From: the human T2T-CHM13v2.0 reference genome, Homo sapiens
DNA: 64,000 bases
Assembly (NCBI RefSeq): GCF_009914755.1
Contig: NC_060925.1
Strand: one strand, 5' to 3'
Shown here: positions 1 to 48,988 of the stretch, piece by piece
How the letters are laid out: each line of letters starts with the position of its first letter
How positions within the stretch are numbered: position 1 is the first letter of the stretch
The notes under the pieces: generated by a model
The model's database searches: none
What the model was told of the DNA's origin: nothing
Seen by the model: only the letters and a program-made list of their open reading frames with translations
Program-made: the position numbers and the translations under genes

Positions 1-967
1 ACTTTTCTTTTCCTAAAGACAACAGAAAACTTTGGTCCCACACATTCTGCTACAAATCTTGGTGGTCCTTTTTGTCCCCAATTCATTTCCTTAACCTACA
101 TATTGAAATATCTTGGCCTTTACTTGGGGTTGTTTTGTTCTTCCTTTGTTTGAGGTGGAACCACTTTATGGTTCTCTTCCTGATGCACATGTATGTCCTT
201 CACATACTAGTGTGTCTTAGCCCCCACATTTGTTCCTGAGACACCATACTAATTTGCTCTCTTCAAGGAAGCTACTAGCATTGCCTACTTGCTGAAATAT
301 CTCAAGTAATTCCAAGCAAAGGGCTTGAGTTAATATTAATAGAAGGCTAGATTCCTAGAATGACCAGAAAACTCATGGAAAACCCTCCAGTGACTCCCTT
401 TGCCCTACAAGATAATGCCAAGGGTCCTTCATTGTCATGAATCTATCATCTAGTTTCCACCTACCTCTTCAGTATTATCATTTCTAATTTTGTTATTCTC
501 CATTTTCTATATGCCTTTTGTACACTCTGAAGCTAACCAACTATTTGCTTGTTTTAAAACAAATAAATGTGATGAACAAAATAAATGTGGTCTCTGCCCT
601 CATAGGCCTTATTGCCTGGTTCAAGATAGTCCCAGTAAACAGAAAAATGAGGGAAAATACCTTACCAGTTTAAGTTGATTCTCTGAAGAAAAAGTGCATG
701 CAGGCGATAGAGGAGAGAATACTAAGATAAACCTAATTTAGATCGAATGGCATAGGGTTGGTTTCCCAGAGAAACTGAGAGTTAACCTGCATGTAACCTG
801 AAGGGTAATTAAAAGTCTTCAGGTAAAGGGGATATCCTTTAGGACAGAAGAAACAATGTGTACAAAACCCCTGAAGCAAGAACTGGATGAGTTGGAGACA
901 AGCAAAGAAGGCCTGTATAAATGCTGTTTTAAAAATGCTTTTCAATTGACAAAATTATATATATTTA

Positions 968-2266
<1,299 letters not shown>

Positions 2267-2749
2267 AAAACATGATATTTTGATACACATATGTATTGTA
2301 GAATGGCTAAAGTTAATTAACATATACCTTTAGCTCATGTACTTATTTGTTTGTGGTGAGAACACTTACAATCTACTGTTAGCAATTTTCAAGTATATAA
2401 TACATTATTATTAACTATAGTCACCAAGATATGCAGTAGAGCTTTTAAAATTATTTCTCCTATCTAACTGAAATTTTGTACCCTTTGATAAACATTTTCA
2501 AAACTCTCCCCTCAACTGCTCAACCAATTTCAGCCTCTGGTAACCAACATTCTACTCTCTGCTTTTATGAGTTTGACTTTTTTTAGATTCCACATATGTG
2601 TGAGATCACATGGTGTTTGTCTTTCTGTTCCTGGCTTATTTCACTTAGCATAATATCATCCAGGTTCATCCATCTTGTTGCAAACAGGACTTCTTTCTAT
2701 ATATGGCTGAATAATATTTTATTGTGTATGTATACCACATTTTCTTATA

Positions 2750-2834
2750 TTAGGTTGGTGCAAAAGTAATTGTGTATTTTTTTTTGCCATTACTTTCAAT
2801 GGCAAAAACTGCAATAACTTTTGCACCAACCTAA
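2750..2834. mobile_element. MADE1 (Hsmar1 mariner-derived MITE)
   Basis: Terminal inverted repeats TTAGGTTGGTGCAAAAGT...ACTTTTGCACCAACCTAA, about 85 bp, flanked by TA on both sides (2748-2749, 2835-2836). Confidence 0.93.
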
Positions 2835-4308
2835 TACATTTGTCCGTTAATAGACACTTACTTAGGTTGATTCCACACCTTGACTATTGTGAATAATGCT
2901 ACATAAACATGGGAGTGCAGCTATCTCTTTGACATTCTGACTTTATATCGATATACATCAAGTAGTGGAATTACAAGATCATATGGTAGTTATATTTTCA
3001 GTTTTTTGAGGAACCCCTTACTGAGTTCCATAATGGCTGTACTAATTTACAACTGTCAACAGTGTGTAGGGGTTCCCTTTTCTCCAAATCCTCCCTAACA
3101 CTTTACATCTTTTGTCGTTTTGATAATAGCCATTCTAACAGGTGTGAGGCGATATCTCATTGTGGTTTTAATATGCATTTTCTGATGAATAGTGGGGTTG
3201 AGCATTTTTTCAGCTACCTACTGTCCATTTATATGTCTTGGGAAATGTCTATTCAGATTCTTTGCCCATTTCTAATTGGGTTATTTGTTATTTTATGATT
3301 GAGTTTTTAAAGTTCTTCACATGCTGTGAATGTTAACCCATTATCAGATATATGGTTTGCAAATATTTTCTCTCATTACATATGCTGTCTCTTTATTCTT
3401 TTGATTGTTACTTTTTCTGTGCAGAAGTTTTTTAGTTTGATGTAATCCCATTTGTCTATTCTGGCTTCGATTACCTGAGCTTTTGGGGTATAAATTCTTT
3501 TTCTGCTTTCTCTCTGGAATGAATTTGAATTTACTGACAGCATGGGTTTTTGCACCAGACACAACTTTGTTGACCCAGTTCCTTGTATGGTGCCTGGCAT
3601 AACAGAAATATCTGTTTTATGAATGGCCATCACTGTCCTGCAATTTTATGTGCCCCCCAATCTTGCTCTGCCATCTTCATGCCTTATCTTGGTGAATATT
3701 AACTCCATCCATTCTAGCAACCATGCCAAGCACATGGAAGTCATCTTCACTACTTTTTTTTTTTTAATCCTCATACCACCCATTGTGTCCTATAGATTCC
3801 ACTGGCTAAAAGTTCCTCAATCACATTCCTTTTCTGTTTTTACAGGATCATCCTGTCTTTTCTGGATTACTGCAAAAACTTCAAGTCCCTTGGTCCCCAA
3901 TCCATTCTTCACACTGCTGCCAGGGAAGTCTTAGGGTTGTTGTGATGGTTAATTAGAAAATATGTGTTAAACACTTACAACAGTTGTCTGGCATATACTG
4001 AGCACTATTTTAATGTTGATTTTTATTATCATGGTCATCATCATCTTTCTAAAATAAAAATCTAATTAAATAATATCCCAGGTTATAAAACTTTCAATAG
4101 TTTCTAACAGATTTGAAGGTACATTTTAACTCTGTTAAAAATTCTACCAAAGTACTTGTTGTTCCAATAAAATACATTGTTTCATGCCCTTTGCTTTTAC
4201 ATGTATTTCCTGAAAATTTATGATTTCTTATTATTTGTCTACCCACTACTCAGATTTCAAAACTTCACTCAAGCATAACCACCTCTAAGTAGTTATTGAC
4301 CTCCATAA

Positions 4309-4739
<431 letters not shown>

Positions 4740-5059
4740 GGAGGGTTAATTTCTTAAGGTAAAAACTACCAATTATTTGAACTCAGATCACCTAAACACA
4801 ACACAGTTCATGACTGAAACTAAACTTTGTAATAGATAAATACATGAATGCTCTCTCTGGGCACTATAACTGAGTTCTCCCACATTCTGCCTCATTTCCC
4901 ATATTTGCTCCTTGCTGCTGTCACTGCTGGATCTACAAGCACCTGTCAGTCCATTGCTCTGCCATTTCTCAAAATATATTCCTTCCCTTGAAATAGAGGC
5001 TTGAGTTAAGGAGTGAATATTCTTGTCTCCAGCAAAAGGGCAAAAATCAGAAACTATAG

Positions 5060-5403
5060 GAGGAAGCCCATGGGAGGTTTTTCTGCTGATTGTATTTCTA
5101 GTAGCTTCTAGATTTGTAATGAGTCACTTCACCAAAGGATCTAAAATAGGAAACCAACTAATTTCCTGAGTCTATTCCTTTATCTATTTGGAAAAAAAAG
5201 CCTTGAGGAGCATTTTCCCTTTGGATCATAGTTGCTAATTGAGGGAGGGCAGAATGTGTCAGAAGCAATGTGGTCATGGCTCTCTAGGGTGCTAGATAGT
5301 AAAATTACCAAGCAGGCATTGATGCTAATGTGAACCAGAAAAAAAGCTCCTTAATTATACTCATTAGGCCTGTAGCTGATCCAGCCCATACAGAAGAGGC
5401 ACA
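5060..5403 (+). promoter_or_regulatory. OR10R2: Putative OR10R2 promoter and 5'UTR with homeodomain (Lhx2/Emx2-type) and O/E (EBF)-like sites
   Basis: GCCCATGGGA 5066-5075 (O/E-like), TAATGA 5117-5122, CAACTAAT 5155-5162, TGCTAATTGA 5233-5242, CTCTCTAGGGT at about 5280, CTCATTAG 5360-5367. Colinear similarity to 19810-20120 and 43910-44535. Confidence 0.65.
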
Positions 5404-5430
5404 ATGACCACTGTTCTGGGGAGCGAAGTA
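5404..5430 (+). CDS. OR10R2: Putative first coding exon of OR10R2 (MTTVLGSEV)
   Basis: ATG at 5404 with A at -3, exactly 9 codons, then a consensus GTAAGT donor at 5431 (phase 0). This matches the phase-0 acceptor at 13015/13016. Confidence 0.75.
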
Positions 5431-6769
5431 GTAAGTCATTTGTTGCTGTCTTGAAAAATTTTAAGAGACTAGCAGGAAGATGTGTAATATATTGGGAATA
5501 TGCTAGTTTTGGGGAATTACTTAGATTTTTCCTTAAAGGGCCTGGGCCATGATTAAGATATACGGCAACTGCATTCCTCTGTACCCCAGGATTCGTGTTT
5601 TAAAGAAAGTGAAACTCTTTCATATTGGAGATTTGGTCTTTATTCCATAGATGGCTTGCAGAAATTAAATTATCTAAAATCTTAGGACATATTTATGTCA
5701 TTTTAAAGATGTTAGCTAGTTATGCCTTTTATCTTATGTTTAATTCAGAAATTGTTGAGATTTTCTTCAAATTGCAGTCTACAAATACGTGACAGCAAAG
5801 GATTGGAAGGTGGTAATAGGAAAAGTAGCTGGATGGGCAGATAAAATAATGCTCAAGTTGAGATCTTAAGGTCAAGAAAAAAGAACATTAGAGATATTGC
5901 AGAATGGTCAAAAAGGCTATCCCTGGCACCAGTCTTAAGAAGGAATGAAGGAAGAAAGGAAAGAAATATTTAATTAGGGCTTCTTATAATTCTGGGCTAC
6001 ATTTTTTACTTATGTTGTCCATTCATCTTTATAACATCCCATATTACAGAAGAGAAAACTAAGATTCAGGAGGATTAATTTATTTGCTCAAAGAAAATGC
6101 TGAAATAAGAATGTGAATTCCATCTTGAGTGCTTTCTTCATAACATAAATTTTTATCTAGCTTCCTTGATCGCTTGCTGGAAGTATCTTTACCAACTACA
6201 TGAAAAATACCTACAAATTAGTTGCAATGATTTATTTAGGTATTAATTTGCTTAATTATAATTTTGTCAGATTTTGAATATTTGTTCTTGCTAGAAACTC
6301 TGATGCTGATGTGGTTAGAGAGATGTATATAAATGTTTGGTGCATGATACGGAAACTTTTGTCAAATGAACAACATAGTCTTTGATTCTAAGAGCTTAAA
6401 TTGTACCAGGTAAGAATGATCATTGTATAGAATGATCTAAAATGTAAGAAGTCCAAGAATGAGTGTTTCACAAGGGTAAAGATCTTTGGTTTGTTCACTG
6501 TTGTATCTCAAACACCAAATAATGTGTCTCAGATTTAGTAATGTATACAATAAATAGTTTTTAAATTGAAATAGTGCTTGGAAACCTGACTTACAGGGAA
6601 GTGATTTGAAAGATTAGAGGATCTGCCCTAACACAGGAAAAGGCATTGTTGTTATAAGACATGGCTCTTTGCATGTTCAGTGAACTAAGAAGTTCCATAA
6701 GATTAAAACATTGGGATAAAATCTGGGAACTGGAATAAATGTTTGCAGTGTTGTGAGAGATCTAACAGC

Positions 6770-7125
6770 CTTTTTCCTTGTCTTTCCTTCCTTTTTTCTT
6801 CCCTTTCTTTCCTTCCCTTTCCCTCCCTTTCTTTATCCTTCCTTCCTTCCTTCCTCCCTCCTTCCCTCTTTCCCTCTCTGCTTCCTTCCTCCCTCCTTCC
6901 CTCTTTCCCTCTCTGCTTCCTCCCTCCCTCCTTCCCTCTTTCCCTCTCTGCTTCCTTCCTCCCTCCTTCCCTCTTTCCCTCTCTGCTTCCTTCCTTCCCT
7001 CCCTCCCTCTCCCTCCCTCCCCCTCTCTCTTTCTTTCTTTCTTTTTCTTTTCTTTCTTTTTTCTTTTCTTCTCTTTCTTCATTTCTCCCTTTCTTCCTCT
7101 CTTTCTTCTTTCTTTCTTTCTTTCT
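6770..7125. repeat. Polypyrimidine tract containing a 35-bp minisatellite (4 copies, 6846-6985) and (TTCC)n/(TTTC)n runs
   Basis: Unit CTTCCTTCCTCCCTCCTTCCCTCTTTCCCTCTCTG; its single G recurs at 6880, 6915, 6950 and 6985. Confidence 0.95.
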
Positions 7126-8029
7126 AAGAAAATTGGAATTTTACAACGTTTGCAGGGATTATTATAGGGTTCTGAGTAAGAAGGTACTTGGTAAAATGTA
7201 AATTTAAATGTCTCTGTGACTGCCACTTCTGAGTTGAACTGTTTCAACACCCACCTTACCATTTATTCTCCTATCCTCTCCCATCTTCTCCTAGCTGTTC
7301 TCTGTGTTCGCAATGCCATGCCTCCTATTCTCAGGCCCCTGTATCTCTGCTGCCCAAATCACTCTGGAAAATAATCTCCTCCAATTGCCCTTCCCAAGTC
7401 AACAGGAGTGGAGGTAAAAATGAAAAACAGAATGAAACAAACAAAACCCTATAGCTTCCTACTTTGAATAAATTTGTTTCTTCTAATTTCTCCCTTCAGG
7501 CTGGATACAAGAGAGGAAAGGCAAACAAAAATAAAGAGTGTCATAAGATATTTATTCTTTTTAAAGAAATACAGATTCTCTTAAGATTCCATAGTTCTGG
7601 CTCTAGAGAGGAATCAGTCATGTAGAAAATACCAGACAGGGGTTACAGGGGGCCTGGAGAGAAAAAGAAAGTTCATTCTCCAATAAAGATGTTATGAATC
7701 AGTTGGTCAGCCCATTGAGTGTGTATTCTATTTTTGTAGTTCTATCTGCAAGAAAAAGTACAAATATATTTTAATTGACACCTAGTATGCATGCACACAT
7801 ACACAAATTGAAATAAAATATTTGCTTTAAATAAGAGCTATTCAGACTGGGTATGCTTTATTTTAATCTTCTCTTCTTTTATCTGCTCTCCATTTAAATT
7901 TAAAAACTGCTGGGGTTGAAACCTAATTTGATTCTATAACCTCAGTGATGTAATAAACATAAAGTTTCAAAATCACTGTCTTAAAACGTATTTTCCTATA
8001 AGACAAAGAGACCAGCAAAAAAAAATTAA

Positions 8030-8260
8030 TAATAGTTAAGAAAATAATACCACTAGATAGAGCACTTATTATGTAGCAGGTGTTGTTCTCAGCACTCTAT
8101 ATAAATTAATACATTTAATAATAATCACAGCCTGTTTCATAGATGAGACAACTACAATATAGCGAGGTTAAATAAATTGTCTAAGGTTACAGTCACCCAA
8201 TGGAAGAACTGGTACCCAAAGCCAAGTTACCTTCCTCTAGATTCCATACTGTCATTCAAT
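8030..8260 (-). mobile_element. MIR SINE remnant
   Basis: 'gagcacttattatgtagcagg...catagatgagacaact...gaggttaaataaattgtctaaggttacag' matches the MIR core in reverse orientation. Confidence 0.7.
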
Positions 8261-9343
8261 ACACAATAATCCTGCCTTTCTTAAAACAAGTACTATTAGT
8301 TTGTGTTACAATTTTCAATTTTTCCCTATTAAAAATACATTTTTACATATAAATCTCTATAGGCAACTTTTAAGAAATAGAATATTGGAATAAATTAGAT
8401 AAATATATTCAAGGATGTAGATATAGTTTGCTAAATTTCTTGGCATAAACAAAACCAAATTATAATCTTATTAGTAAATTTTTTGTTACTAGTCATATAA
8501 CACCACCACAGCTAATTTGATGAGTGTAAATAATATCTCTACTTTACTTTATTTGAAATACACTTCAAGTTAAAATATATTTTTAACATAAATTTTTATA
8601 TGTTTGATGCATTCTATTTCTATTTTATAAACTGTATGCTTTTATCTGTTTTCTTCTTCAAAGTTTGTTATTTTCTCCATCGGCTTGTAATACATTTTTT
8701 ATTAATATTAACATCTGAAGAATATTTTTGGTAGTTTTCCATTTGTTGTTTGCTTTCTATTATTTCTAATTGTGCCTTTCTGTAAATAAATATTTTATTT
8801 TACACCAATTGTTGCTTAATACTCTTTGATAATATCTCATTATTGTTTACGTTTAGCTTTTCAAATTTTCTGTCCAGTAATACAATGTTTTCTAATCCTT
8901 TACATTTTTTTGTATTTTATTAACATATAAATTTTGAATGTATCCGTTGAAAATTTAAACTGATATTTAAAATGTATTAAAGATGTATTTATTAAGTTAC
9001 TATTATAGGTCAGAAACAGTTTAGGTGGCATTGAGATGTTTTATATTTTAAAAATCATTAAATTTTTGTTTAGGTAAAGAATTAAGGTATAAACTTTCTT
9101 CTGATAACTGCTTTAAATTTAGCCATATTTTCTAATATATATAGCTGACATTATTTTCTAGAACTTATTTTATTTTACATTATATTTTCCCTTTGACCCA
9201 ACACTTGTTTAATAGTATTTTCAAATTATCATATGGAAGAGCTTTCAAAAATATGATTTTCGTATGATTTTATTGTTACTGATCAATGGTTTTGCTCAAA
9301 TGTACAGACAGGTTTTCTATATTTTTTAAAAAAAATTTAAGTA

Positions 9344-9682
<339 letters not shown>

Positions 9683-9839
9683 TTAATTAATGCTTCTTTA
9701 AGTATATAGGATAAATGTGTAAGATACGTTTTAGTCTTTACAGTTTTTGATCAATGTTTGTGAGCACTTGGATAGTCATGAATATGAATAAGATGAAAGG
9801 GTGATGGATCATTTCAATGTGTAGATACAAGTCTTTTAT

Positions 9840-11435
9840 TTCATAGCATTCTGACTGGTGTGAAATGGTATCTCATTGTGGTTTCGATTTGCATTTCTCT
9901 GATGATTATTGATGATGAGCATTTTTCATAAGTTTCATGGCTGCTTGTATGTCTTATTTTGAGAGGCGTCTGTTCATATCCTTTGCACATTTTAAAATGG
10001 GGTTTATTGTTTTTTGCTTGATTTGTTTAAGTTTCTTAAAGATTCTGAATATTAGGCCTTTGTCTGATGCATAGTTTGAATATTTTCTCCCATTCTGTAG
10101 GTTGTCTGGTTCAATATTTGAAAATCAATAAATGTAATTCATGACATAAACAATTAGAAATGAAATTCATATGATCATCTCAATAGATGCAGAAAATTTT
10201 CAATAAAATCTAACGTCCCTTCATGATAAAAACCCTCAACAGACTAGGCTTTAAGGAACATATCTCAAAATAATAAGAGCCATCTGTGACAAATCCACAG
10301 CCAACATCATATTCAACAAGCAAAAGCTGGAACTATTCTTGAGAACTGAAACAACACAAGGATACCCATTCTTACCACTCCTATTCAAGGCAAGAGAAAG
10401 AAATTAAAGGCATCCAAATAGGAAGAAAATGTCAAACTATTTGTCTCCATTGTTGATATTATTCCATATCTAGAAAACTAATTTAAAGACTCTGCCAAAA
10501 GGCTCCTAGAACTGATAAATGACTTTAGCAAAATTTTAGGATACAAAATCAATCTAAAAAAGTCAGTAGTGTTTCTATATATCAATAATGTCTAGACTGA
10601 GGGTCAAATCAAGAACACAATTATATTTGAATAACCACAAAGAAAATAAAATATCTAGAAATGCACCTAATAAAAGAGGAGAAAGGTCTCTACAAGGAGA
10701 ACTAAAAAACACTGCTCAAAGAAATCAGAGATAACACAAATAAATGGAAAAACATTCCATACTCATGAACTGGAATAATCAATATTGTTAAAATGGCCGT
10801 ACTGTCAAAAGCAATTTACAGATTCAATGCTATTCCTATCAAACTACCAATGTAATTTTATCAGAATTAGCAAAACTATTATAAAATTCATATGAAACCA
10901 AAAAAGCCCTCAAATAGCCCAAGTAACCCTAAAGAAAAAGAACAAAGCCAGAGAGAAGCATCATACTAGCCAACTTCAAACTATACTATAACGTTACAGT
11001 AACCCAAACAGCATGGTTCTGGTGCAAATACAGACACATAGACCAAAGGAACATAATAAAAAACTAAGAAAGCAAGCTGCACACCTACAACCATCTGATC
11101 TTCAACAAGGCTGACAAGAGCAAACAATGGAACAAGGACGCCCTATTCAATAAATGGTGTGGGAATAGCTGGCTAGCCATCTGCAGAAGAGGGAAACTGG
11201 ACCCTCACTTTTCACCATATACAAAAATTAACTCAAAGTGGATTAAAAATTTAAATGTAAAACCTCAAACTCTAAAAATCCTAGACGAAAACCTGGGGAA
11301 TACTATTCTCAATATCAGCCTTGGCAAAGAATTTTTGGTTAAGTTCCCAAAAGCAATTGTAGCAAAAACAAAAATTCATAAGTGGGAGCTAATTAAACTA
11401 GAGCTTTTGCACAGCAAAAGAAACTATTGACAGAG
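9840..11435 (-). mobile_element. Older primate L1 (L1PB/late L1PA) ORF2 fragment with inversion: 9840-10110 on -, 10111-11435 on +
   Basis: The + segment ends at '...gaaactattgacagag', and the adjoining L1 sequence ('acaacctacagaatgggagaaaata') is the reverse complement of the end of the - segment. Confidence 0.85.
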
Positions 11436-12603
11436 AGAAGAGATTCTTATTTCTACCTGTTAGAACCTGAGGGGAGGTTTATGTGCAGTAATTAGAAAAA
11501 ATTTCATATAAGCTAATTTTATTTAATGGGATTCTACCTGACTAAAAAGTATTCTTGTCTTCTCTTATACTAAGATTTAATTAACTGTTACTAGAAAATC
11601 AAAGGTATACTACATTGCTTTGACTATTTACTGCAGAAAAAAACTATTGTAAGTTTCAAACCCCAATTTTCATTTTTTCATAAACCATACACAAAGTTTT
11701 TCCTAAAAGCAGTTTATGTATCAGAATTCAATGACTCTACAATGGACCATGTTTTATTTAAGGCATGCTGGACTCCATGTGTGTCTATAGATGAAGATGA
11801 TGGGTAAGGAAAGAAGGAAGGTGATAAGGATAATTCTAGTCACTTCAGAAAATACTTATTCTGCATATAAATACAGATAATTAGTCATAATCTGTTTGCT
11901 CATTTTTCTTGAATGTCTACATTATTGCTGTTCAAAGTGGGGAATAAGTGATATTAACCTAATTCAATCCATCTATATTGAGCTCAACAGAACCTATCTC
12001 CCAACCCTCTGTTCAGGTATATAATATCTTCTTTTGTAAAATGTGTTTATGGTTATTTTAATTATTATTACAAATATAACTGGGCATTACTAGAGTGGTA
12101 AACTTTATCAGCCTGAGAATGCAAATAATCAACTTACAATTGTTTCTATCAACAATCTTCAAAGAGCTGTGATGTGTTCCAGAAACACTTAAAGATCCTA
12201 GAGTAGGACTAAAATGGTGACAATTAAATGGATCACAATGCTCCAAAAGCCTCTATTTAGTGATTAAACTAGACACATTTGGGCAATTCTGATTTCTTTT
12301 CATATAAATTTTATAATCATCTTATCAACCTTTAGATGAAAAGCCTGCTGGGATTTGTTAAGAATTATGTTGACTACATAGACCAATTTGGTCAGAATTG
12401 CTCTTTATTTTATTACATCTTTAAACTCATGAACATGGGTGTTCTTCATTTAGTCATATATTTTATAATTTAACCCAGCAATGTTTGAGAGATTTCTCTG
12501 TATATGTCTCACACTTTTTTGTTAAATCTGACACTAAGCTTTTTTATGATATTGTGAATTGAATTGTTTTCTTAATATCATTTTTAGATTTTTTGTTGCT
12601 TGT

Positions 12604-12950
12604 TGTAGTAGGCCAAATAATGAGCTCCCAAAGATGTCTATGTTTTAATCACCAGAACCTGAGAATATGTTAGATTATACAAGCTCAAGGAATTAAGGCT
12701 GCAGAAGGAAAGTCAACTGACAATAAAATAGAGATATTATCTTGTATTATTCTGGTGGGCCCAAAGTAATCATAAGGGTTCTTAAAATTGGGAGAGAGAA
12801 TCAGAAAGTCAGAGAAAGAGATGTAACTTTGTTGACTTTGAAGATGGAAGAAGAGGACCATGAACCAATGAACATGAGAGGTAGTTAGGAACCGGAAAAG
12901 GTGAATAAAAGGCAAGATTCTTCTTTGTCACCACCTGAAAGGAACAAAGG
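12604..12950 (+). mobile_element. MLT1 (MLT1D-like) MaLR LTR fragment
   Basis: 'tgtagtaggccaaataatgagctcccaaagatgtc...gtgggcccaaagtaatcataagggttcttaaaa...ttgaagatggaagaagaggacc' matches the recalled MLT1 LTR consensus. Confidence 0.8.
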
Positions 12951-12955
12951 AGTGC

Positions 12956-13963
12956 ATGCCCCAAATTCTTATATTCACATACCTGAATATGTTTTACTTC
13001 TTTCCCCCTTTGCAGATCTTGGCAGAAAACCTCACCATGGTCACCGAATTCCTGTTGCTGGGTTTTTCCAGCCTTGGTGAAATTCAGCTGGCCCTCTTTG
13101 TAGTTTTTCTTTTTCTGTATCTAGTCATTCTTAGTGGCAATGTCACCATTATCAGTGTCATCCACCTGGATAAAAGCCTCCACACACCAATGTACTTCTT
13201 CCTTGGCATTCTCTCAACATCTGAGACCTTCTACACCTTTGTCATTCTACCCAAGATGCTCATCAATCTACTTTCTGTGGCCAGGACAATCTCCTTCAAC
13301 TGTTGTGCTCTTCAAATGTTCTTCTTCCTTGGTTTTGCCATTACCAACTGCCTGCTATTGGGTGTGATGGGTTATGATCGCTATGCTGCCATTTGTCACC
13401 CTCTGCATTACCCCACTCTTATGAGCTGGCAGGTGTGTGGAAAACTGGCAGCTGCCTGTGCAATTGGTGGCTTCTTGGCCTCTCTTACAGTAGTAAATTT
13501 AGTTTTCAGCCTCCCTTTTTGTAGCGCCAACAAAGTCAATCATTACTTCTGTGACATCTCAGCAGTCATTCTTCTGGCTTGTACCAACACAGATGTTAAC
13601 GAATTTGTGATATTCATTTGTGGAGTTCTTGTACTTGTGGTTCCCTTTCTGTTTATCTGTGTTTCTTATCTCTGCATTCTGAGGACTATCCTGAAGATTC
13701 CCTCAGCTGAGGGCAGACGGAAAGCGTTTTCCACCTGCGCCTCTCACCTCAGTGTTGTTATTGTTCATTATGGCTGTGCTTCCTTCATCTACCTGAGGCC
13801 TACAGCAAACTATGTGTCCAACAAAGACAGGCTGGTGACGGTGACATACACGATTGTCACTCCATTACTAAACCCCATGGTTTATAGCCTCAGAAACAAG
13901 GATGTCCAACTTGCTATCAGAAAAGTGTTGGGCAAGAAAGGTTCTCTAAAACTATATAATTGA
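12956..13963 (+). CDS. OR10R2: Olfactory receptor family 10 subfamily R, intact; the true coding exon probably begins at 13016
   Basis: 335-aa ORF with OR motifs GN, LHTPMYFFL, MGYDRYAAICHPLHY, HYFCD, KAFSTCASHL, PLLNPMVYSLRNKD, and an N-glycosylation site NLT. Name recalled from the N-terminal sequence and length. Confidence 0.95.
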   Translation: MPQILIFTYLNMFYFFPPLQILAENLTMVTEFLLLGFSSLGEIQLALFVVFLFLYLVILSGNVTIISVIHLDKSLHTPMYFFLGILSTSETFYTFVILPKMLINLLSVARTISFNCCALQMFFFLGFAITNCLLLGVMGYDRYAAICHPLHYPTLMSWQVCGKLAAACAIGGFLASLTVVNLVFSLPFCSANKVNHYFCDISAVILLACTNTDVNEFVIFICGVLVLVVPFLFICVSYLCILRTILKIPSAEGRRKAFSTCASHLSVVIVHYGCASFIYLRPTANYVSNKDRLVTVTYTIVTPLLNPMVYSLRNKDVQLAIRKVLGKKGSLKLYN

Positions 13964-19809: not shown

Positions 19810-20097
19810 ACATCTCTGACTCCTTAGAGAATTTCCAAGAGGAAGTCAACTAATCCCCATGAATAATAGGGCTTTTTCTTTGGCCAATGAATTCTCATAG
19901 TGTATTATCATGGTTCCACATGCTAATTAGAAAAATTATGGACAAGTATTGGGCACAATGTGGTAATTAGCTCCCTGTGGAGATGGCGAGCTCACTTACC
20001 AACCAAGGCATTGAGACCATGGCTAATGTAAAAAGGAAAGGCCATTGATGACACCCATTGAGGCACTACCTAAAGCACCCATGGAGACAGGGCACAG
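19810..20097 (+). promoter_or_regulatory. OR10R3P: Putative promoter and non-coding exon 1 of OR10R3P
   Basis: CAACTAAT 19847-19854, TGCTAATTAG 19921-19930, TAATTAGCTCCCTGTGGA at about 19964-19981, and donor CAG/GTAACA at 20097/20098. Colinear with the OR10R2 module. Confidence 0.6.
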
Positions 20098-21053
20098 GTA
20101 ACATTTTTCTCTGGAGTAATGCTATTTTCTTATTTTGGTCTTGGGAGTTCCTGAAAGATGAAGAAGAACCCTGAGGCATCATGACAGGGAAGGCAATTTT
20201 GGCAAATTTCACTTAGAAACCCTTTACAGAAGTTTCTAGGAAATGCCTGAGAATGAATTAACTGGCAGGTTACAAGGCACTAGAACTCTGATTTGAAGAA
20301 ATGTAAAATTTTAATTTTTATTTAGAGACCTTGATTTTTTTATTAAGAAGACCAGTGACAGTCATTTATTTGTATGTCAAATTTAAAAATTGTTGAGTTT
20401 TTCCATGAGCTAGTGATCTGTTTATCCCTAGTTATTAGTAATGAAAAATAGAAATTGTGACCAAATGACAGAAAGCAAAGCTGAATAGTGAAGAAAATAA
20501 GGATAAAAATTGAGACCAAGGCCAAGACAAAGGCAGAGACTCAGGCTAAGTCTTGATTATTTCATAGGGTGGAGGTAGTATTAGTTTTGGAAAGAAAGAA
20601 TAAAAAATTTACAGTAAACATAGAATGTATAAGGAAGACAGAAGTGTTTCTCACTTAAGAGGCACATGGTAGTGCCTCTTAGGGAAACCAAGTTACTACA
20701 AAATAAACTAATTGGAATTATTATTAATTCATTAATAGACATTTATTTTTTCATCAAGTATCCATATCTCATTTATTTAAATATTGGATAAAGTTGAGGA
20801 TACAAAGGGAATAAGATGAGGCATTTATCCTTGGGACTCTTAAATCTATTGGAGAGACCAATAGGAAAAAAAAATTAGATATAACATGTTGAGTATTTTG
20901 ATGAAGACATACTAGACAAGCTTTAGATTACTAAGAAGGGAACAGCACACCCTCCCTAGACATATTGGAGAAAGTTCAATAATTGATGACTCAAAAAATG
21001 TGAGGAATGAGTGGGCCATACATGAAGAGGAAATGATATTGGAGGCTGAGATC

Positions 21054-24296: not shown

Positions 24297-25238
24297 ATGG
24301 CCAATTCTTCCTCTGTCACTGAGTTCTTAGTGCTGGGCTTCTCTAGCCTTGGGGAATTGCAGCTTGTCCTCTTTGCAGTCTTTCTCTGCCTCTATTTGAT
24401 TATCTTGAGTGGAAACATCATCATCATCTCAGTCATTCATTTGGATCACAGCCTCCACACACCCATGTACTTCTTTCTAGGTATTCTTTCTATCTCTGAA
24501 ATCTTCTACACAACTGTTATTCTGCCCAAGATGCTTATCAACTTATTCTCTGTATTCAGGACACTCTCCTTTGTGAGTTGTGCCACCCAAATGTTCTTCT
24601 TCCTCGGTTTTGCTGTCACTAACTGTCTGCTTCTGGGAGTGATGGGTTATGATCGTTATGCTGCCATCTGTCAGCCTTTGCAATACGCTGTTCTCATGAG
24701 CTGGAGAGTATGTGGACAACTGATAGCAACTTGTATTATTAGTGGCTTCCTAATATCTCTGGTGGGAACAACTTTTGTCTTTAGCCTCCCTTTCTGTGGC
24801 TCCAACAAGGTCAACCACTACTTTTGTGATATTTCACCAGTTATCCGTCTCGCCTGTGCTGACAGCTACATCAGTGAACTGGTCATCTTCATCTTCGGGG
24901 TCTTGGTGCTTGTTGTGCCCTTGATATTTATCTGCATTTCCTATGGCTTCATTGTCCGCACCATCCTGAAGATCCCATCAGCTGAAGGCAAACAAAAAGC
25001 CTTCTCCACCTGTGCTTCCCATCTCATTGTAGTCATTGTCCATTATGGTTGAGCTTCCTTTGTCTACTTGCGACCCTCAGCCAAATATACATCGGGCAAA
25101 GATAGGCTGGTGACAGTGACCTATACCATCATCACCCCAGTCTTGAACCCCATGGTATACAGCCTCAGGAACAACGATGTGCAGATGGCTATTCGGAAAC
25201 TGATTGGAAAGTCTGGGTTTTCTCTTAAGACTCTATGA
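24297..25238 (+). pseudogene. OR10R3P: OR10R paralogue with one premature stop (TGA 25050-25052) in an otherwise intact 313-codon frame
   Basis: 251-aa ORF with OR motifs. After the TGA the same frame continues ASFVYLRPSAKYTSGKDRLVTVTYTIITPVLNPMVYSLRNNDVQMAIRKLIGKSGFSLKTL* to 25238. Symbol recalled from gene order. Confidence 0.92.
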
Positions 25239-43909: not shown

Positions 43910-44520
<611 letters not shown>

Positions 44521-45756
44521 TAAACAGAGTTTGGGGCCTTGAGAGGTCAATAGTAGAAAGGAATAGAATAGTGTTATTTCAATATAGAAATGGTTGTGAT
44601 AACATTAAGTTTTGAGTCTCATCTCATTAGAAGATTTCACTGGATTACAATAGCTAAGTTCTAGGGAACATCAGAAAATAACCCTGTTTGGATTATTTTA
44701 TGTGGGAAAGTGAATGAAGATAGTATGTGAATTTACTAACAGAAAAGTACCAGTCACCATGCTCATTTTAGAAATGCTCTTATTCTCCCGTGAGTTTTAG
44801 TTTGTTTATCTAGTTACTCAGTGATAGTGAGATAATATATGATAGCTTGAAAAAATGGAAGATAGTATAGGGCTTGGGAGAGATAAAATAGAGCCTCACC
44901 AAATGAGCTACAATAAGCTATTGCTTCAAGCAAATGCCATGAAATATGTTATATTGAGCCCATAGCACTGATTACTTCCCTATGAGCCATCTCAGAAAGA
45001 CTGATTCCTTAAGCAAGGCTTCTCTGGGTAACTGAAAAGGAAAAAAATAGATACCCATAACTTTCCGTCAAGAATGAGCTTTCAACAGTTCACTCACTTT
45101 TCATTCTCAAATGTCACATGAGAGTATTATCTGGTGACAAAGGTATATTAGAAATGTCCAAGCAATGAGGAGGTAAAAAAATGAGTGTCTAATTAACTTG
45201 CCATTCTTTACAGACCTTCTGCTGTTTTTGAATCTCACCATCCTAACATTCTGTGGACAAAAAATCTACTGCATAAGCCTCAGAGATAGCAACTGGGGAG
45301 GTAAATAAATTGCACTCCTCAGGGAAGATACTGGTACTATTTTTTTCGTTAGTCACCAGTTAATAAATAAAGTATTGTGAAGAGCCAGACTGAGAGATAA
45401 AAAAGTAAAAATAAAAATAAATGCCACAGTAGGGAAATTCATGAGAGCTAGATCCAGTTCATATTCCACAACTTCTTGGTCGTGTGAAAGATCAAATTGT
45501 GGGTAGTACAATCATAAATATGCAATGTGATCTAGTAGGTTGCAAACTGGATCTTTATTCCCATCAATTTCCTTTTGAGGCTTAAAATTCCATCACACCC
45601 TTAATGAGCTTAAATAATGCCTTTTACAGATGCCCTTTATATAATAAAATATTTAATAATCAACTAATTGAACAAGTAGCTTTTAGATAGCAATTTGTTT
45701 GTAGATATTATGGGGAATACAAAATTACTCCAAGGCCTTTATGCTCTGATATATGA

Positions 45757-47156
<1,400 letters not shown>

Positions 47157-48007
47157 GAAAAAGCGCATTTCAAGATCATGCAATTGACTATTCAATCATT
47201 GTATATTAATAATTTCTGTGAATAGCACTGTGCTGGGCACTAAAGAAAAAAATTAAATTTATACAACTAATTTTATGAACTTAGATATGCACATTGTGAA
47301 CTTAGAGTTCATATCTATCTTCTGTGATTCACTCTAGTATAGAATAGAAAGTTGCTAAATAATTTAAAAGAAAGGAAATTTTATATCACCCTTAAATTCA
47401 GAGACCAGAGTTGCCAGGGGTTATAGTTCTATTTGGGTCATCAAAAATGAATGCAAAGTGGATAAAGATCTTCCAGATAGAGGGAAAGAGATGAGGAAAT
47501 CACAGAGGTGAGGTGTTGCAAGATGAGAAAACATAGTCTTAACATGAAAAAAACTTCATTTTTTTATTGGAGAATTTAAGGACAGTGGTTGGGGAGAGGA
47601 GAGAACACTTGGTGAAGAAAGTAAGAGATGCTTTAGCATCATTCCTGCTAAGAATTATACTTTGCTTATACAGCCTAACGAAATTGTGTAATATAGACAA
47701 TAAGTATTTATTAAACGTGTGTTTAATAAAGTAGTTAAATTCACATGTTAATTTCCTGTTTGCTATTTAAAGTAGGCAATGTGAAAAGATCACCTAGACT
47801 TAAACGTTATAAGAGATGTAAACATGTCACTGGAAACAAACGTAATCTGAGTATTTTGAAACAATACAATGAATAGATATGATCACTAGGGCATTTACTA
47901 CTACAGGTTCTACCCCCTTTTCTGATTTATTGTTTCTCAATCCATAGTGTAAGTAACTCCTGCATCTTTTAGGGCAAACTATCTTCTTTCATTTTTGTTC
48001 TCTGTAG

Positions 48008-48988
48008 GTCAATCTCTGGGACCAAGTCAATCAAGCTAACTTCTCTGTCAGAGTTCCTGCTTCTTGAGTTCTCCAGCCTTGAAGAAATCCAGCAGATCCT
48101 TTTTCTGTCTGCTTGTGGCTATATCTGATTGTTCTGAGTGGAAATATCACCACTGTCACTGTCATCCGCCTGGATCAAAGCCTCCACATACCTGTATACT
48201 TATTCCTAGGGATCCTCTCCATTTCTGGGACATGCTATACCTTTGTCATTCTGCCCAAGATGCTCATAGATCTGTTGTCTTTGCTCAGAACAATCTCATT
48301 TATTAACTGCCACTCCAGTGTTCTTCTTTCTGGGTTTTGCTGTCACTAATTTCATGTTCCTGGGCATGACAGTTTATGATTCCTATGTTGCCATCTGCCA
48401 TCCACTTCACTACCCTGTCCTTACGAGCTGGCAGATATGTAAACAACTGGCAGCAACGTGTGCTGTGATTGTTTTTTTTTGTTTGTTTGTTTTCACTGAT
48501 AGGCTCCTTCTTAGATTTTCAGCTGCTTTTCTGTGGCCCAAACAAGATCAACCACTACTTCTGTGACATCTCACTGCTTATTCAGCTTGCCTGTACTGAT
48601 ACCTACATCAGGGAGCTAGTCATCTTCATTGGTGGAATTCTAGCACTTACGGTTCCTCTGATTTTATTTGCATCTCCTATGGCTTCATTGTTCACACCAT
48701 CCTGAGGATCCCATATGTGAAAGCAAGCAAAAAGCCATCTCTACTTGTGCCTCCCATCTTATTATGGTCGTTGTCCATTATGGCTGTGCCTCCTTTGTCA
48801 ACCTGTGACCATCAGCCAAATAATCATCCAGCAAATAACCATCTAGCAAGAACAGGCTGGTGACAGTGACCTTACACAGTTGTGACTCCGTTGTTGAATC
48901 CATGGTATATAGCTTCAAGAATAAGAACGTTCAGATGGCCATTTGGAAAGTGATTTGCCAAGGAGGATTTCCTCCTAAAGCTATAATA
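48008..48988 (+). pseudogene. OR10R1P: Heavily disrupted OR10R paralogue (multiple frameshifts and stops)
   Basis: OR fragments in shifting frames ([63 protein letters not shown]), with a strong acceptor 'ttctttcatttttgttctctgtag' ending at 48007. Symbol recalled from gene order. Confidence 0.9.

What the first reader, a model, noticed from the sequence alone, without database searches (positions are those of the whole stretch)
5398..5436. Splice-donor-to-start-codon switch: possible origin of the OR10R2 coding exon 1
Seen: OR10R2 GGCACA ATG ACC ACT GTT CTG GGG AGC aligns without gaps to the OR10R3P module GGCACA G/GT AAC ATT TTT CTC TGG AGT (20091-20117), 12/18 identical after the ATG/GGT position. 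OR10R3P and OR10R1P (CAG/GTAGGTAAAC, 44515) have a GT donor where OR10R2 has ATG. In the coding exon, OR10R2 has ATC TTG GCA (TTG at 13019) where OR10R3P has TTC ATG GCC. Inference: OR10R2 lost the ancestral donor and the ancestral in-exon ATG (ATG->TTG), exonised 27 nt of former intron and gained a new start. This would be a concrete route by which a single-exon GPCR CDS becomes two-exon. Polarity rests only on 2-of-3 parsimony.
Basis: inference. Interest (0 to 1): 0.8.

Follow-up and report, generated by a model that had tools for sequence, protein, structure and literature searches.

The report
OR10R2 start codon in upstream exon
The human smell-receptor gene OR10R2 starts its protein in a small upstream exon because its usual start codon was lost; this layout is already published, and the proposed origin from a splice site turned start codon is plausible but unproven.

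Summary
The sequence facts hold. OR10R2 exon 1 reads ATG plus 8 codons, then GTAAGT (5404-5436). The OR10R3P module aligns without gaps and has CAG|GT where OR10R2 has ATG (12 of 18 identical behind it, P about 3.5e-4). The coding exon has TTG where OR10R3P has ATG. The promoter and exon-1 modules are homologous (OR10R2 against OR10R3P, z 19). OR10R1P cannot be formally aligned at the donor itself; only its spacing agrees.

The two-exon coding sequence is already known: Barnes et al. 2020 list OR10R2 with 324 aa, an intron after residue 9, and a 7585 bp intron.

Orthologue proteins add two points. The in-exon ATG is ancestral: three Afrotheria and a rhinoceros keep M there, and 17 boreoeutherian rows have L. 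The exon-1 ATG is old: related 8-9 aa peptides occur in orangutan, lemur, pig, horse, gundi and tenrec. The tenrec model has both starts, so the upstream start came before the loss.

The donor-to-ATG polarity stays open. The OR10R1/R2/R3 branching is unresolved: R2+R3 gets 78/75 support, and R1+R3 is not rejected (p 0.205). OR10K and OR10Z exon-1 regions do not align, and no DNA from other mammals was available.

Verdict: a known feature with a plausible, moderately supported evolutionary detail. Interest is low to moderate.

The parts
5136..5297 (+). OR10R2 promoter-proximal module, homologous to the stretches upstream of OR10R3P and OR10R1P. It holds TGCTAATT (5233), CAATGTGG (5266) and CTCTCTAG (5280).
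   Evidence: Reading these motifs as homeodomain-like and O/E-like sites is recalled knowledge, not tested here.
5298..5430 (+). OR10R2 exon 1 (133 nt): 5' UTR 5298-5403 and first coding part 5404-5430.
   Evidence: Hub annotation. Barnes GTF exon 158472220-158472352 and CDS 158472326-158472352 in GRCh38..
5404..5406 (+). Annotated initiator ATG (context ACAATGA). First in-frame ATG after the TGA at 5377. It aligns with GGT of OR10R3P (20097-20099).
5431..5436 (+). The 5' splice site in use, GTA|GTAAGT. Best-scoring GT of 12 in 5298-5560.
   Evidence: Hub annotation.
12989..13015 (+). 3' end of the 7585-nt intron: pyrimidine tract and CAG acceptor. It also holds the intronic ATG (12989) of the single-exon isoform; another ATG lies at 12956.
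   Evidence: Orthologue read-through models show the same tract in 8 rows.
13016..13963 (+). OR10R2 coding exon (315 codons plus stop). Pfam 7tm_4, E 8.8e-56.
13019..13021 (+). TTG (Leu) at the position of the ancestral initiator ATG.
13037..13039 (+). Internal in-frame ATG in an optimal context (ACCATGG). Candidate rival start; it would drop the NLT glycosylation site.
19828..20097 (+). OR10R3P promoter and putative exon-1 module, homologous to OR10R2 5136-5403.
20098..20103 (+). OR10R3P putative 5' splice site CAG|GTAACA. Best of 6 GTs in 19993-20255. It aligns with the OR10R2 ATG.
   Evidence: rough matrix recalled from memory; no transcript evidence.
24297..25238 (+). OR10R3P coding exon. 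Canonical ATG at 24297 and a single in-frame TGA at 25050 (codon 252).
44326..44426 (+). Part of the OR10R1P module that aligns significantly with OR10R2 5219-5314.
44516..44525 (+). OR10R1P putative tandem 5' splice sites, CAG|GTAGGT and TAG|GTAAAC. Homology to the OR10R2 ATG rests on spacing only.

Best explanation
OR10R2 did not gain an intron. Its start codon moved into a 5' non-coding exon that already existed.

All three OR10R genes in the window carry a homologous promoter plus first-exon module a few kb upstream of the coding exon. In the OR10R2 lineage, before the placental radiation, an ATG arose at 5404. It lies at the end of that module, reads 9 codons to a GTAAGT donor, and splices in frame to an acceptor 3 nt before the old initiator. 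This gave a receptor with about 10 extra N-terminal residues; the tenrec model still shows this state. With two starts available, the old ATG could decay. It is Leu in every boreoeutherian row seen, and the former 5' UTR intron became an obligatory coding intron.

The triplet that is now ATG sat on the ancestral 5' splice site, kept as AG|GTAA in OR10R3P and OR10R1P. Its loss moved splicing to the next good donor 27 nt downstream.

Shown here: module homology, the ancestral in-exon ATG, the age of the exon-1 reading frame, and the order of the two start-codon events. Inferred: that the OR10R3P and OR10R1P GTs are or were real donors, that the short exon is the ancestral form, and that the exon-1 ATG is the one translated. 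My confidence is about 0.85 for start relocation into an old exon, about 0.55 for the donor shift, and 0.6 overall.
For: Module homology: (R2-R3P z 19, R2-R1P z 14). The R2-R3P alignment runs through the site (5339-5453 to 20031-20143, 0 of 500 shuffles reach the score). Behind the site 12 of 18 positions match (P 3.5e-4).

Donors: with a rough recalled matrix, the top GT is the annotated donor in OR10R2 (5431). In OR10R3P the top GT is 20098 (score 2.9, next best -0.5). In OR10R1P the top GTs are 44516 and 44520. Spacing from TACCAAGC is 98 nt to the R2 ATG, 98 and 102 nt to the R1P GTs, and 101 nt to the R3P GT.

Ancestral in-exon ATG: 4 of 21 readable placental OR10R2 rows keep M (three Afrotheria and a rhinoceros) and 17 have L. 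In the OR10R3 clade 60 of 64 rows start with M there, and all 6 marsupial rows start inside the exon.

Old exon-1 frame: 6 of the 21 rows carry a related 8-9 aa first-exon peptide (Pongo, Lemur, Sus, Equus, Ctenodactylus, Echinops). Of the 12 ATG-9 codon-GT windows in 1-13015, only 5404 matches each of the five 9-residue peptides tested (Pongo, Lemur, Equus, Ctenodactylus, Echinops) at 3 or more of 8 residues (3-8 of 8; the others reach 2 at most). Echinops is afrotherian and its model has both starts.

Spliced frame: 975 nt, 324 aa, one stop at the end, matching Barnes et al..

Topology: the best tree joins R3 with R2, leaving R1 outside. In that tree a GT shared by R3P and R1P is ancestral.
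Against: The R2+R3 grouping has only 78/75 support. R1+R3 (p-AU 0.205) and R1+R2 (p-AU 0.080) are not rejected. If R1 and R3 are sisters, the polarity is undecidable.

OR10R1P does not align at the site (299 of 500 shuffles reach the score).

GGT to ATG differs at all three bases, so no single switch mutation is evident.

OR10R3P has a weak GT (GGA|GTAATG, 20116) and OR10R1P another (ATA|GTAGAA, 44553) near the place of the OR10R2 donor.

The marsupial rows group with OR10R2 (99/99), so the three lineages split before the therian divergence. Similarity that continues past the putative OR10R3P donor is then odd for a neutral intron, and would fit an exon that runs further in all copies.

The acceptors also differ between the copies.

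All orthologue N-termini are computed gene models, and some may have been guided by the human protein. No transcript or protein evidence was available here.
Confidence: 0.6

Rival explanations
1. The long first exon, with its donor at the homologue of 5431, is ancestral or was always used in the OR10R2 lineage. The ATG arose by substitutions inside an already exonic 5' UTR, with no exonisation of intron. The AG|GTAA of OR10R3P and OR10R1P is a later gain (shared if R1 and R3 are sisters), is not the donor actually used, or arose by decay in two pseudogenes.
For: An R1+R3 clade is not rejected. OR10R1P is not alignable at the site. Weak GTs lie near the R2-donor homologue in both pseudogenes. 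R2-R3P similarity continues about 45 nt past the putative R3P donor. No transcript is annotated for either pseudogene (hub annotation).
Against: In OR10R3P the GT at 20098 is by far the best of 6 GTs, and the GT near the R2-donor homologue scores -3.2. OR10R3P became a pseudogene recently: it has one stop and is 95% identical to the intact marmoset protein, so its module should still be near-native. R1P and R3P donor spacing agree with each other and with the R2 ATG, not with the R2 donor. The best tree favours R2+R3.
Confidence: 0.25
2. The exon-1 ATG is not the functional start. Translation begins at the internal ATG 13037 (ACCATGG) or, on unspliced or intron-initiated transcripts, at the intronic ATG 12989 or 12956. 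On this view the split coding sequence is an annotation choice.
For: ATG 13037 has the optimal context, whereas 5404 has ACAATGA. Two small upstream reading frames (ATG 5322 and 5328) precede 5404. [quoted passage not shown] Two perissodactyl models start at the internal M (P0019 and P0023).
Against: The 9-codon frame, its ATG and its in-frame junction recur in 6 other species across 5 orders. The residues between the junction and the internal M stay in frame, and the N-x-T site is kept in 20 of 21 readable rows (Lemur has NFA). That is not expected of a 5' UTR over roughly 90 My (date recalled). The junction carries the tag 'RNA_Seq_supported_partial' in the Barnes GTF.
Confidence: 0.15
3. 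The ATG/GT coincidence is an alignment accident. The last few tens of bases of the modules are not homologous base for base.
For: The stretch behind the site is not significant alone (196 of 500 shuffles). There is no R1P alignment at the site. The dust-filtered BLAST drops the promoter hit.
Against: The R2-R3P alignment is continuous and gapless across the site, from a z 19 match. Behind the site 12 of 18 positions match (P 3.5e-4). The six bases before it are identical.
Confidence: 0.05

Closest known systems
Split olfactory receptor genes of Barnes et al. 2020 (BMC Genomics 21:196, PMC7055050), second class: split isoform plus a single-exon isoform. I read the abstract, sections 7 and 10, and supplementary file 3.
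   Same: OR10R2 is itself on the list: ENST00000641067, 324 aa, intron after residue 9, 7585 bp, the longest human case. The start lies in the upstream exon and the intron lies in the N-terminal tail.
   Different: [quoted passage not shown] For OR10R2 it found no conserved mouse orthologue. Here, orthologue models from 6 species show the first-exon frame is conserved, the paralogue modules show the exon and intron predate the coding use, and a candidate mutational site is named.
Split ORs of the first class in the same paper (for example Olfr1174-ps, Olfr1175-ps, Olfr1177-ps/OR5D3P): loci once called pseudogenes for lack of a conserved initiator ATG.
   Same: The canonical in-exon ATG is lost, an ATG is recovered in the adjacent upstream exon, and the first exon holds 9 residues.
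   Different: OR10R2 also has intronic ATGs that allowed a single-exon model, so it was never classed as a pseudogene.
Cryptic 5' splice-site activation after loss of the authentic donor (general knowledge of pre-mRNA splicing, recalled; no paper read here).
   Same: In the proposed step the GT is destroyed and the next good donor, 27 nt downstream, takes over.
   Different: Here it would be an evolutionary fixation, and the destroyed site reads as an in-frame initiator. None of this was observed directly.
N-terminal extension from in-frame upstream ATGs in 5' UTRs (for example Nucleic Acids Res 2024;52:8112, PMC11317171; I saw only the search listing and the start of the abstract).
   Same: An in-frame upstream start adds a short N-terminal extension to an otherwise unchanged protein.
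   Different: In OR10R2 the upstream ATG lies in a separate exon and the original start was later lost, so the extension is obligatory.

Membership tests
Split OR gene as defined by Barnes et al. 2020 | Intact full-length OR reading frame across two exons. | tested here: met
   5404-5430 joined to 13016-13963 gives 975 nt and 324 aa with one terminal stop. The coding exon matches Pfam 7tm_4 at E 8.8e-56.
Split OR gene as defined by Barnes et al. 2020 | Initiator Met and splice junction conserved in orthologues of other mammals. | tested here: met
   Related first-exon peptides joined at the same point occur in Pongo, Lemur, Sus, Equus, Ctenodactylus and Echinops models. 5404 is the only one of 12 candidate windows that matches the five 9-residue peptides tested, all but Sus. 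Caveat: these are computed protein models, and no DNA was seen.
Split OR gene as defined by Barnes et al. 2020 | Transcript support for the exon-exon junction. | not testable with these tools
   I saw only the tag 'RNA_Seq_supported_partial' in the Barnes GTF and the RefSeq selected transcript in the hub annotation.
Split OR gene as defined by Barnes et al. 2020 | No downstream, highly conserved Met that gives a single-exon frame of correct length. | tested here: inconclusive
   The canonical position is TTG in human and L in 17 of 21 readable rows. An internal Met at 13037 is conserved and would give 308 aa without the glycosylation site.
5' splice-site shift by loss of the authentic donor | Ancestral donor at the upstream position. 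| tested here: inconclusive
   GT is present at the aligned site in OR10R3P and, by spacing, in OR10R1P. Polarity is unresolved and no paralogue outgroup aligns.
5' splice-site shift by loss of the authentic donor | The new donor is used and the old one is abolished in the derived gene. | tested here: met
   OR10R2 has no GT at 5404-5406. The annotated donor at 5431 is the best of 12 GTs.

The most novel reading that the evidence does not exclude
In the stem placental OR10R2 gene, changes in one triplet both destroyed the ancestral 5' splice site of the non-coding first exon and created an initiator ATG. Splicing fell to a cryptic donor exactly 27 nt downstream, in frame with an acceptor 3 nt before the old start. 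A single small lesion thereby turned a 5' UTR intron into a coding intron. The tenrec keeps the two-start intermediate, and Boreoeutheria then lost the old ATG. The sister lineage OR10R1, which also lacks the canonical ATG in 12 of 12 rows, may have become split independently. That would make OR10R a natural series for how intronless GPCR coding regions become split.
Probability: 0.3. Interest if true: 0.45.

Novelty: already known. Interest (0 to 1): 0.3.

Why it matters
Vertebrate odorant receptor coding regions were long held to be intronless. The published catalogue of exceptions describes them as intron insertions.

For OR10R2, the window and the orthologue proteins show a simpler route. 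The intron and the first exon were already there as 5' UTR structure, and only the start codon moved, in two dated steps: an upstream ATG gained before the placental radiation, then the old ATG lost in Boreoeutheria. This reading probably applies to most N-terminal split ORs. It also affects how loci without a start codon are classed as pseudogenes.

The specific donor-to-ATG coincidence is a neat, testable detail but does not change the picture much. Practically, anyone expressing OR10R2 should use the 324-aa form rather than the 335-aa read-through model.

Tried and rejected
(1) Paralogue outgroups. I fetched the exon-1 regions of OR10K1, OR10K2 and OR10Z1 from the same genome and aligned them to the three OR10R modules. 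None of the 9 comparisons was convincing: the best, OR10R3P against OR10K1, scored 15, with 6 of 200 shuffles reaching it, and the others had 47 or more of 200.

(2) Formal alignment of OR10R1P at the donor was not significant.

(3) Default-scoring BLAST (E up to 1e-3) found no paralogue match to 4800-6200. A +1/-1 scoring scheme was needed. With dust filtering on, the promoter hit vanished again.

(4) Acceptor homology between the three copies gave marginal scores and more than one plausible register: R2-R3P 10 of 300 shuffles, R2-R1P 53 of 300, R3P-R1P 1 of 300. I draw no conclusion beyond noting that the acceptors seem to sit at different distances from the canonical start.

(5) A search of the whole human assembly with 5130-5480 found only the locus itself.

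(6) A first tree held a mis-framed OR10R3P row through my off-by-one error. It was rebuilt, and only the rebuilt tree is used.

(8) Protein comparison on the OR10R1P stretch failed because of stop codons. I read the region directly instead.

(9) No DNA of other mammals is reachable with these tools, so no codon-level ancestral reconstruction or dN/dS was possible.

(10) Literature. They found no paper on the origin of the OR10R2 first coding exon or on the route by which split ORs arise. The library misses most subscription journals.

Full report
WHAT IS THERE. The window is human chr1 (T2T) 157,604,001-157,668,000. The quoted bases are all present. OR10R2 exon 1 (5298-5430) ends with GGCACA, ATG (5404-5406) and eight more codons, followed by the donor GTAAGT (5431-5436). 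Upstream of OR10R3P lies GGCACAG|GTAACA, with GT at 20098. Upstream of OR10R1P lies GAGCAG|GTAG|GTAAAC, with GT at 44516 and 44520. The OR10R2 coding exon opens after a pyrimidine tract and CAG with ATC TTG GCA (TTG at 13019). OR10R3P reads TTC ATG GCC (ATG at 24297). Joining 5404-5430 to 13016-13963 gives 975 nt, or 324 aa, starting MTTVLGSEV|ILAENLT. The coding exon is a standard odorant receptor (Pfam 7tm_4, E 8.8e-56).

IS THE ALIGNMENT REAL? Default BLAST found nothing. Smith-Waterman scores against 300 shuffles were 38 for R2-R3P (null maximum 16, z 19), 31 for R2-R1P (z 14) and 16 for R3P-R1P (z 3.5). Shared motifs are TGCTAAT/GT, CAATGTGG, CTCCCTGG-like, TACCAAGC and GCTAAT. From memory these look like the homeodomain and O/E sites of OR promoters; I did not test that.

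Over the last 150 nt the R2-R3P alignment (5339-5453 to 20031-20143) beats all 500 shuffles and crosses the ATG/GGT site without a gap. The 12-of-18 identity behind the site has P = 3.5e-4. There are results against. The part behind the site alone is not significant (196 of 500). R2-R1P over the last 150 nt is at chance (299 of 500). A dust-filtered BLAST drops the R2-R3P promoter hit. For OR10R1P only spacing speaks: from TACCAAGC it is 98 nt to the R2 ATG, 98 and 102 nt to the R1P GTs, 101 nt to the R3P GT, and 125 nt to the real R2 donor.

ARE THE PARALOGUE GTs DONORS? No transcript is annotated for either pseudogene. I used a rough donor matrix recalled from memory. It ranks the annotated OR10R2 donor first of 12 GTs, which is a sanity check. 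OR10R3P 20098 (CAG|GTAACA) is first of 6 GTs by a wide margin (2.9 against -0.5). OR10R1P 44516 (CAG|GTAGGT, 6.1) and 44520 (1.7) are first and second of 15. Weak GTs lie near the place of the R2 donor in both pseudogenes (20116 at -3.2, 44553 at -4.9). This makes the upstream GTs the likely donors, as inference.

ALREADY PUBLISHED. Barnes et al. 2020 (PMC7055050; I read the abstract, sections 7 and 10, and supplementary file 3, with passages of files 1, 4 and 6) list OR10R2 among 13 human split OR genes. The entry is ENST00000641067: 324 aa, intron after residue 9, 7585 bp. [quoted passage not shown] Four answered literature searches found nothing on the origin of this exon.

ORTHOLOGUES. A protein search with the coding-exon translation returned 120 listed hits. 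I read 53 of them in full and aligned all 120, together with the query itself and the human OR10R3P translation. I sorted them by identity to three references.

- Placental OR10R2 clade: 27 rows including the window's own, of which 21 are readable at the canonical start. L is found in 17, all Boreoeutheria. M is found in 4: Elephantulus, Loxodonta and Echinops (Afrotheria), and Ceratotherium. The 6 unreadable rows are two N-truncated, two models starting at the internal M, one garbled and one chimeric.
- Of the 21 readable rows, 6 carry a first-exon peptide related to the human one: Pongo MTTVLGSEV, Lemur MAAVLGSEV, Equus MNIVMRSEV, Sus MSVLRSVV, Ctenodactylus MATLLRNEA and Echinops MVAVLGSAM. 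A further 8 read through the pyrimidine tract and CAG, showing that the acceptor is conserved. Four have unrelated upstream exons, 2 start at the canonical M, and 1 is the window's own start-less exon translation (P0001).
- As a control, the + strand of 1-13015 holds 12 ATG-9 codon-GT windows. Only 5404 matches each of the five 9-residue peptides tested (all but Sus, which has 8 residues) at 3-8 of 8 residues; the others reach 2 at most.
- The Echinops model has both the first-exon peptide and the canonical M (MVAVLGSAM|VMAENVT).
- The OR10R3 clade starts with M at the canonical place in 60 of 64 rows.
- All 6 marsupial rows start two codons further upstream, inside the exon.

It follows that the placental ancestor had the in-exon ATG and, by parsimony over Afrotheria and Boreoeutheria, already had the exon-1 frame. 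The old ATG was lost later. The rhinoceros M against the horse L within one subclade shows the codon can toggle. All of these are computed gene models, and some may have been guided by the human protein.

POLARITY OF THE DONOR SHIFT. I built a careful IQ-TREE of 42 rows: 38 of the 120 hits chosen by hand to span clades and orders, plus human OR10R2, OR10R3P with X at its stop, OR10K1 and OR10Z1. The tree gives OR10R 99/99, OR10R1 99/94, OR10R3 91/92, and marsupials plus placental OR10R2 99/99. The three lineages join weakly: R3 with R2 at 78/75. AU tests do not reject R1+R3 (log-likelihood difference 1.39, p 0.205) or R1+R2 (difference 1.74, p 0.080). Human paralogue outgroups fail, and no DNA of other mammals can be reached here.

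Because marsupials sit with OR10R2, the three lineages predate the therian split. That makes the continued R2-R3P similarity past the putative R3P donor somewhat surprising for an intron, and keeps the rival of a long ancestral exon alive.

WHICH START IS USED? ATG 5404 has the context ACAATGA, follows an in-frame TGA at 5377, and is preceded by two tiny out-of-frame upstream reading frames (5322 and 5328). ATG 13037 has the optimal ACCATGG. Against initiation at 13037, the residues between the junction and that Met stay in frame, and the N-x-T site is kept in 20 of 21 readable rows. I put about 0.75-0.8 on 5404 being the working start on spliced mRNA.

VERDICT. The donor shift is plausible but unproven. 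The framing as a fresh origin is wrong: the arrangement is about as old as placental mammals, and the two-exon gene is in print and in GENCODE and RefSeq. The session adds three things: the order of events with the tenrec intermediate, evidence from the paralogue modules that the exon and intron predate their coding use, and the limits of the parsimony argument.

Noticed in passing
window 48008-48050 (OR10R1P); proteins P0013, P0043, P0049, P0066, P0069, P0071, P0076, P0077, P0090, P0091, P0093, P0095: The OR10R1 lineage also lacks the canonical start. None of 12 OR10R1-clade rows has M there (Q in 7, H in 3, K in 1, unclear in 1). Most rows share an in-frame extension of about 9 residues (VN[FL]W.QVNQ). 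In human OR10R1P this extension begins right after tctgtAG at 48007/48008. OR10R1 may be a second, independently split OR in other mammals. Its true start is not evident, because the predicted N-termini disagree.
   Followed up: partly
window 25050-25052 (OR10R3P): OR10R3P is broken by a single in-frame TGA (codon 252, in HYG*ASF) and is otherwise 95% identical over 313 aa to the intact marmoset protein P0046. It is a recent pseudogene, so its upstream module is probably near-native.
   Followed up: partly
protein P0058 (Daubentonia, named 'OR10R2 isoform 2, partial'): This gene model joins an OR10R2-type first-exon peptide (MTTVLGSK) to an OR10R3-type coding exon. It hints that the OR10R2 first exon can splice to the next OR gene downstream.
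   Followed up: no
window 5656-5765 and 20293-20403: A second conserved block lies inside the OR10R2 intron and at the matching place behind the OR10R3P module (66% over 116 columns, E 1e-4; core AAATTGTTGAG.TTTTC). It could be an alternative 5' UTR exon or a regulatory element.
   Followed up: no
window 5233-5240, 5266-5273, 5280-5287, 5306-5313, 5324-5329, and counterparts at 19921, 19956, 19997, 20022 and 44340, 44392, 44418, 44443: Short motifs are shared by the three upstream modules: TGCTAAT/GT, CAATGTGG, CTCCCTGG-like, TACCAAGC and GCTAAT. From memory they resemble the homeodomain and O/E sites of OR promoters. The annotated start of transcription (5298) lies just behind them.
   Followed up: partly
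window 5322-5333: Two overlapping mini reading frames (ATG CTA ATG TGA) lie in the OR10R2 5' UTR, inside the conserved GCTAATG motif.
   Followed up: no
proteins P0018 (Equus) and P0020 (Ceratotherium): Within one perissodactyl OR10R2 subclade (99/99 in the first, quick tree; P0020 was not in the rebuilt tree), the horse has L and the rhinoceros M at the canonical start. The old start codon was therefore either lost more than once or regained.
   Followed up: no
window 7534-28018, minus strand (LOC107985213), and the OR10R2 coding exon: A thymus-specific antisense lncRNA, Thy-ncR1, is reported to overlap OR10R2 and a related OR pseudogene (PMC3023731; passages read). It does not overlap exon 1.
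   Followed up: no
window 4433-4730 and 43960-44253; 11022-11442 and 45761-46184: These pairs are 75-80% identical and fall in stretches masked as repeats. They are interspersed repeats, not part of the OR10R duplication.
   Followed up: no
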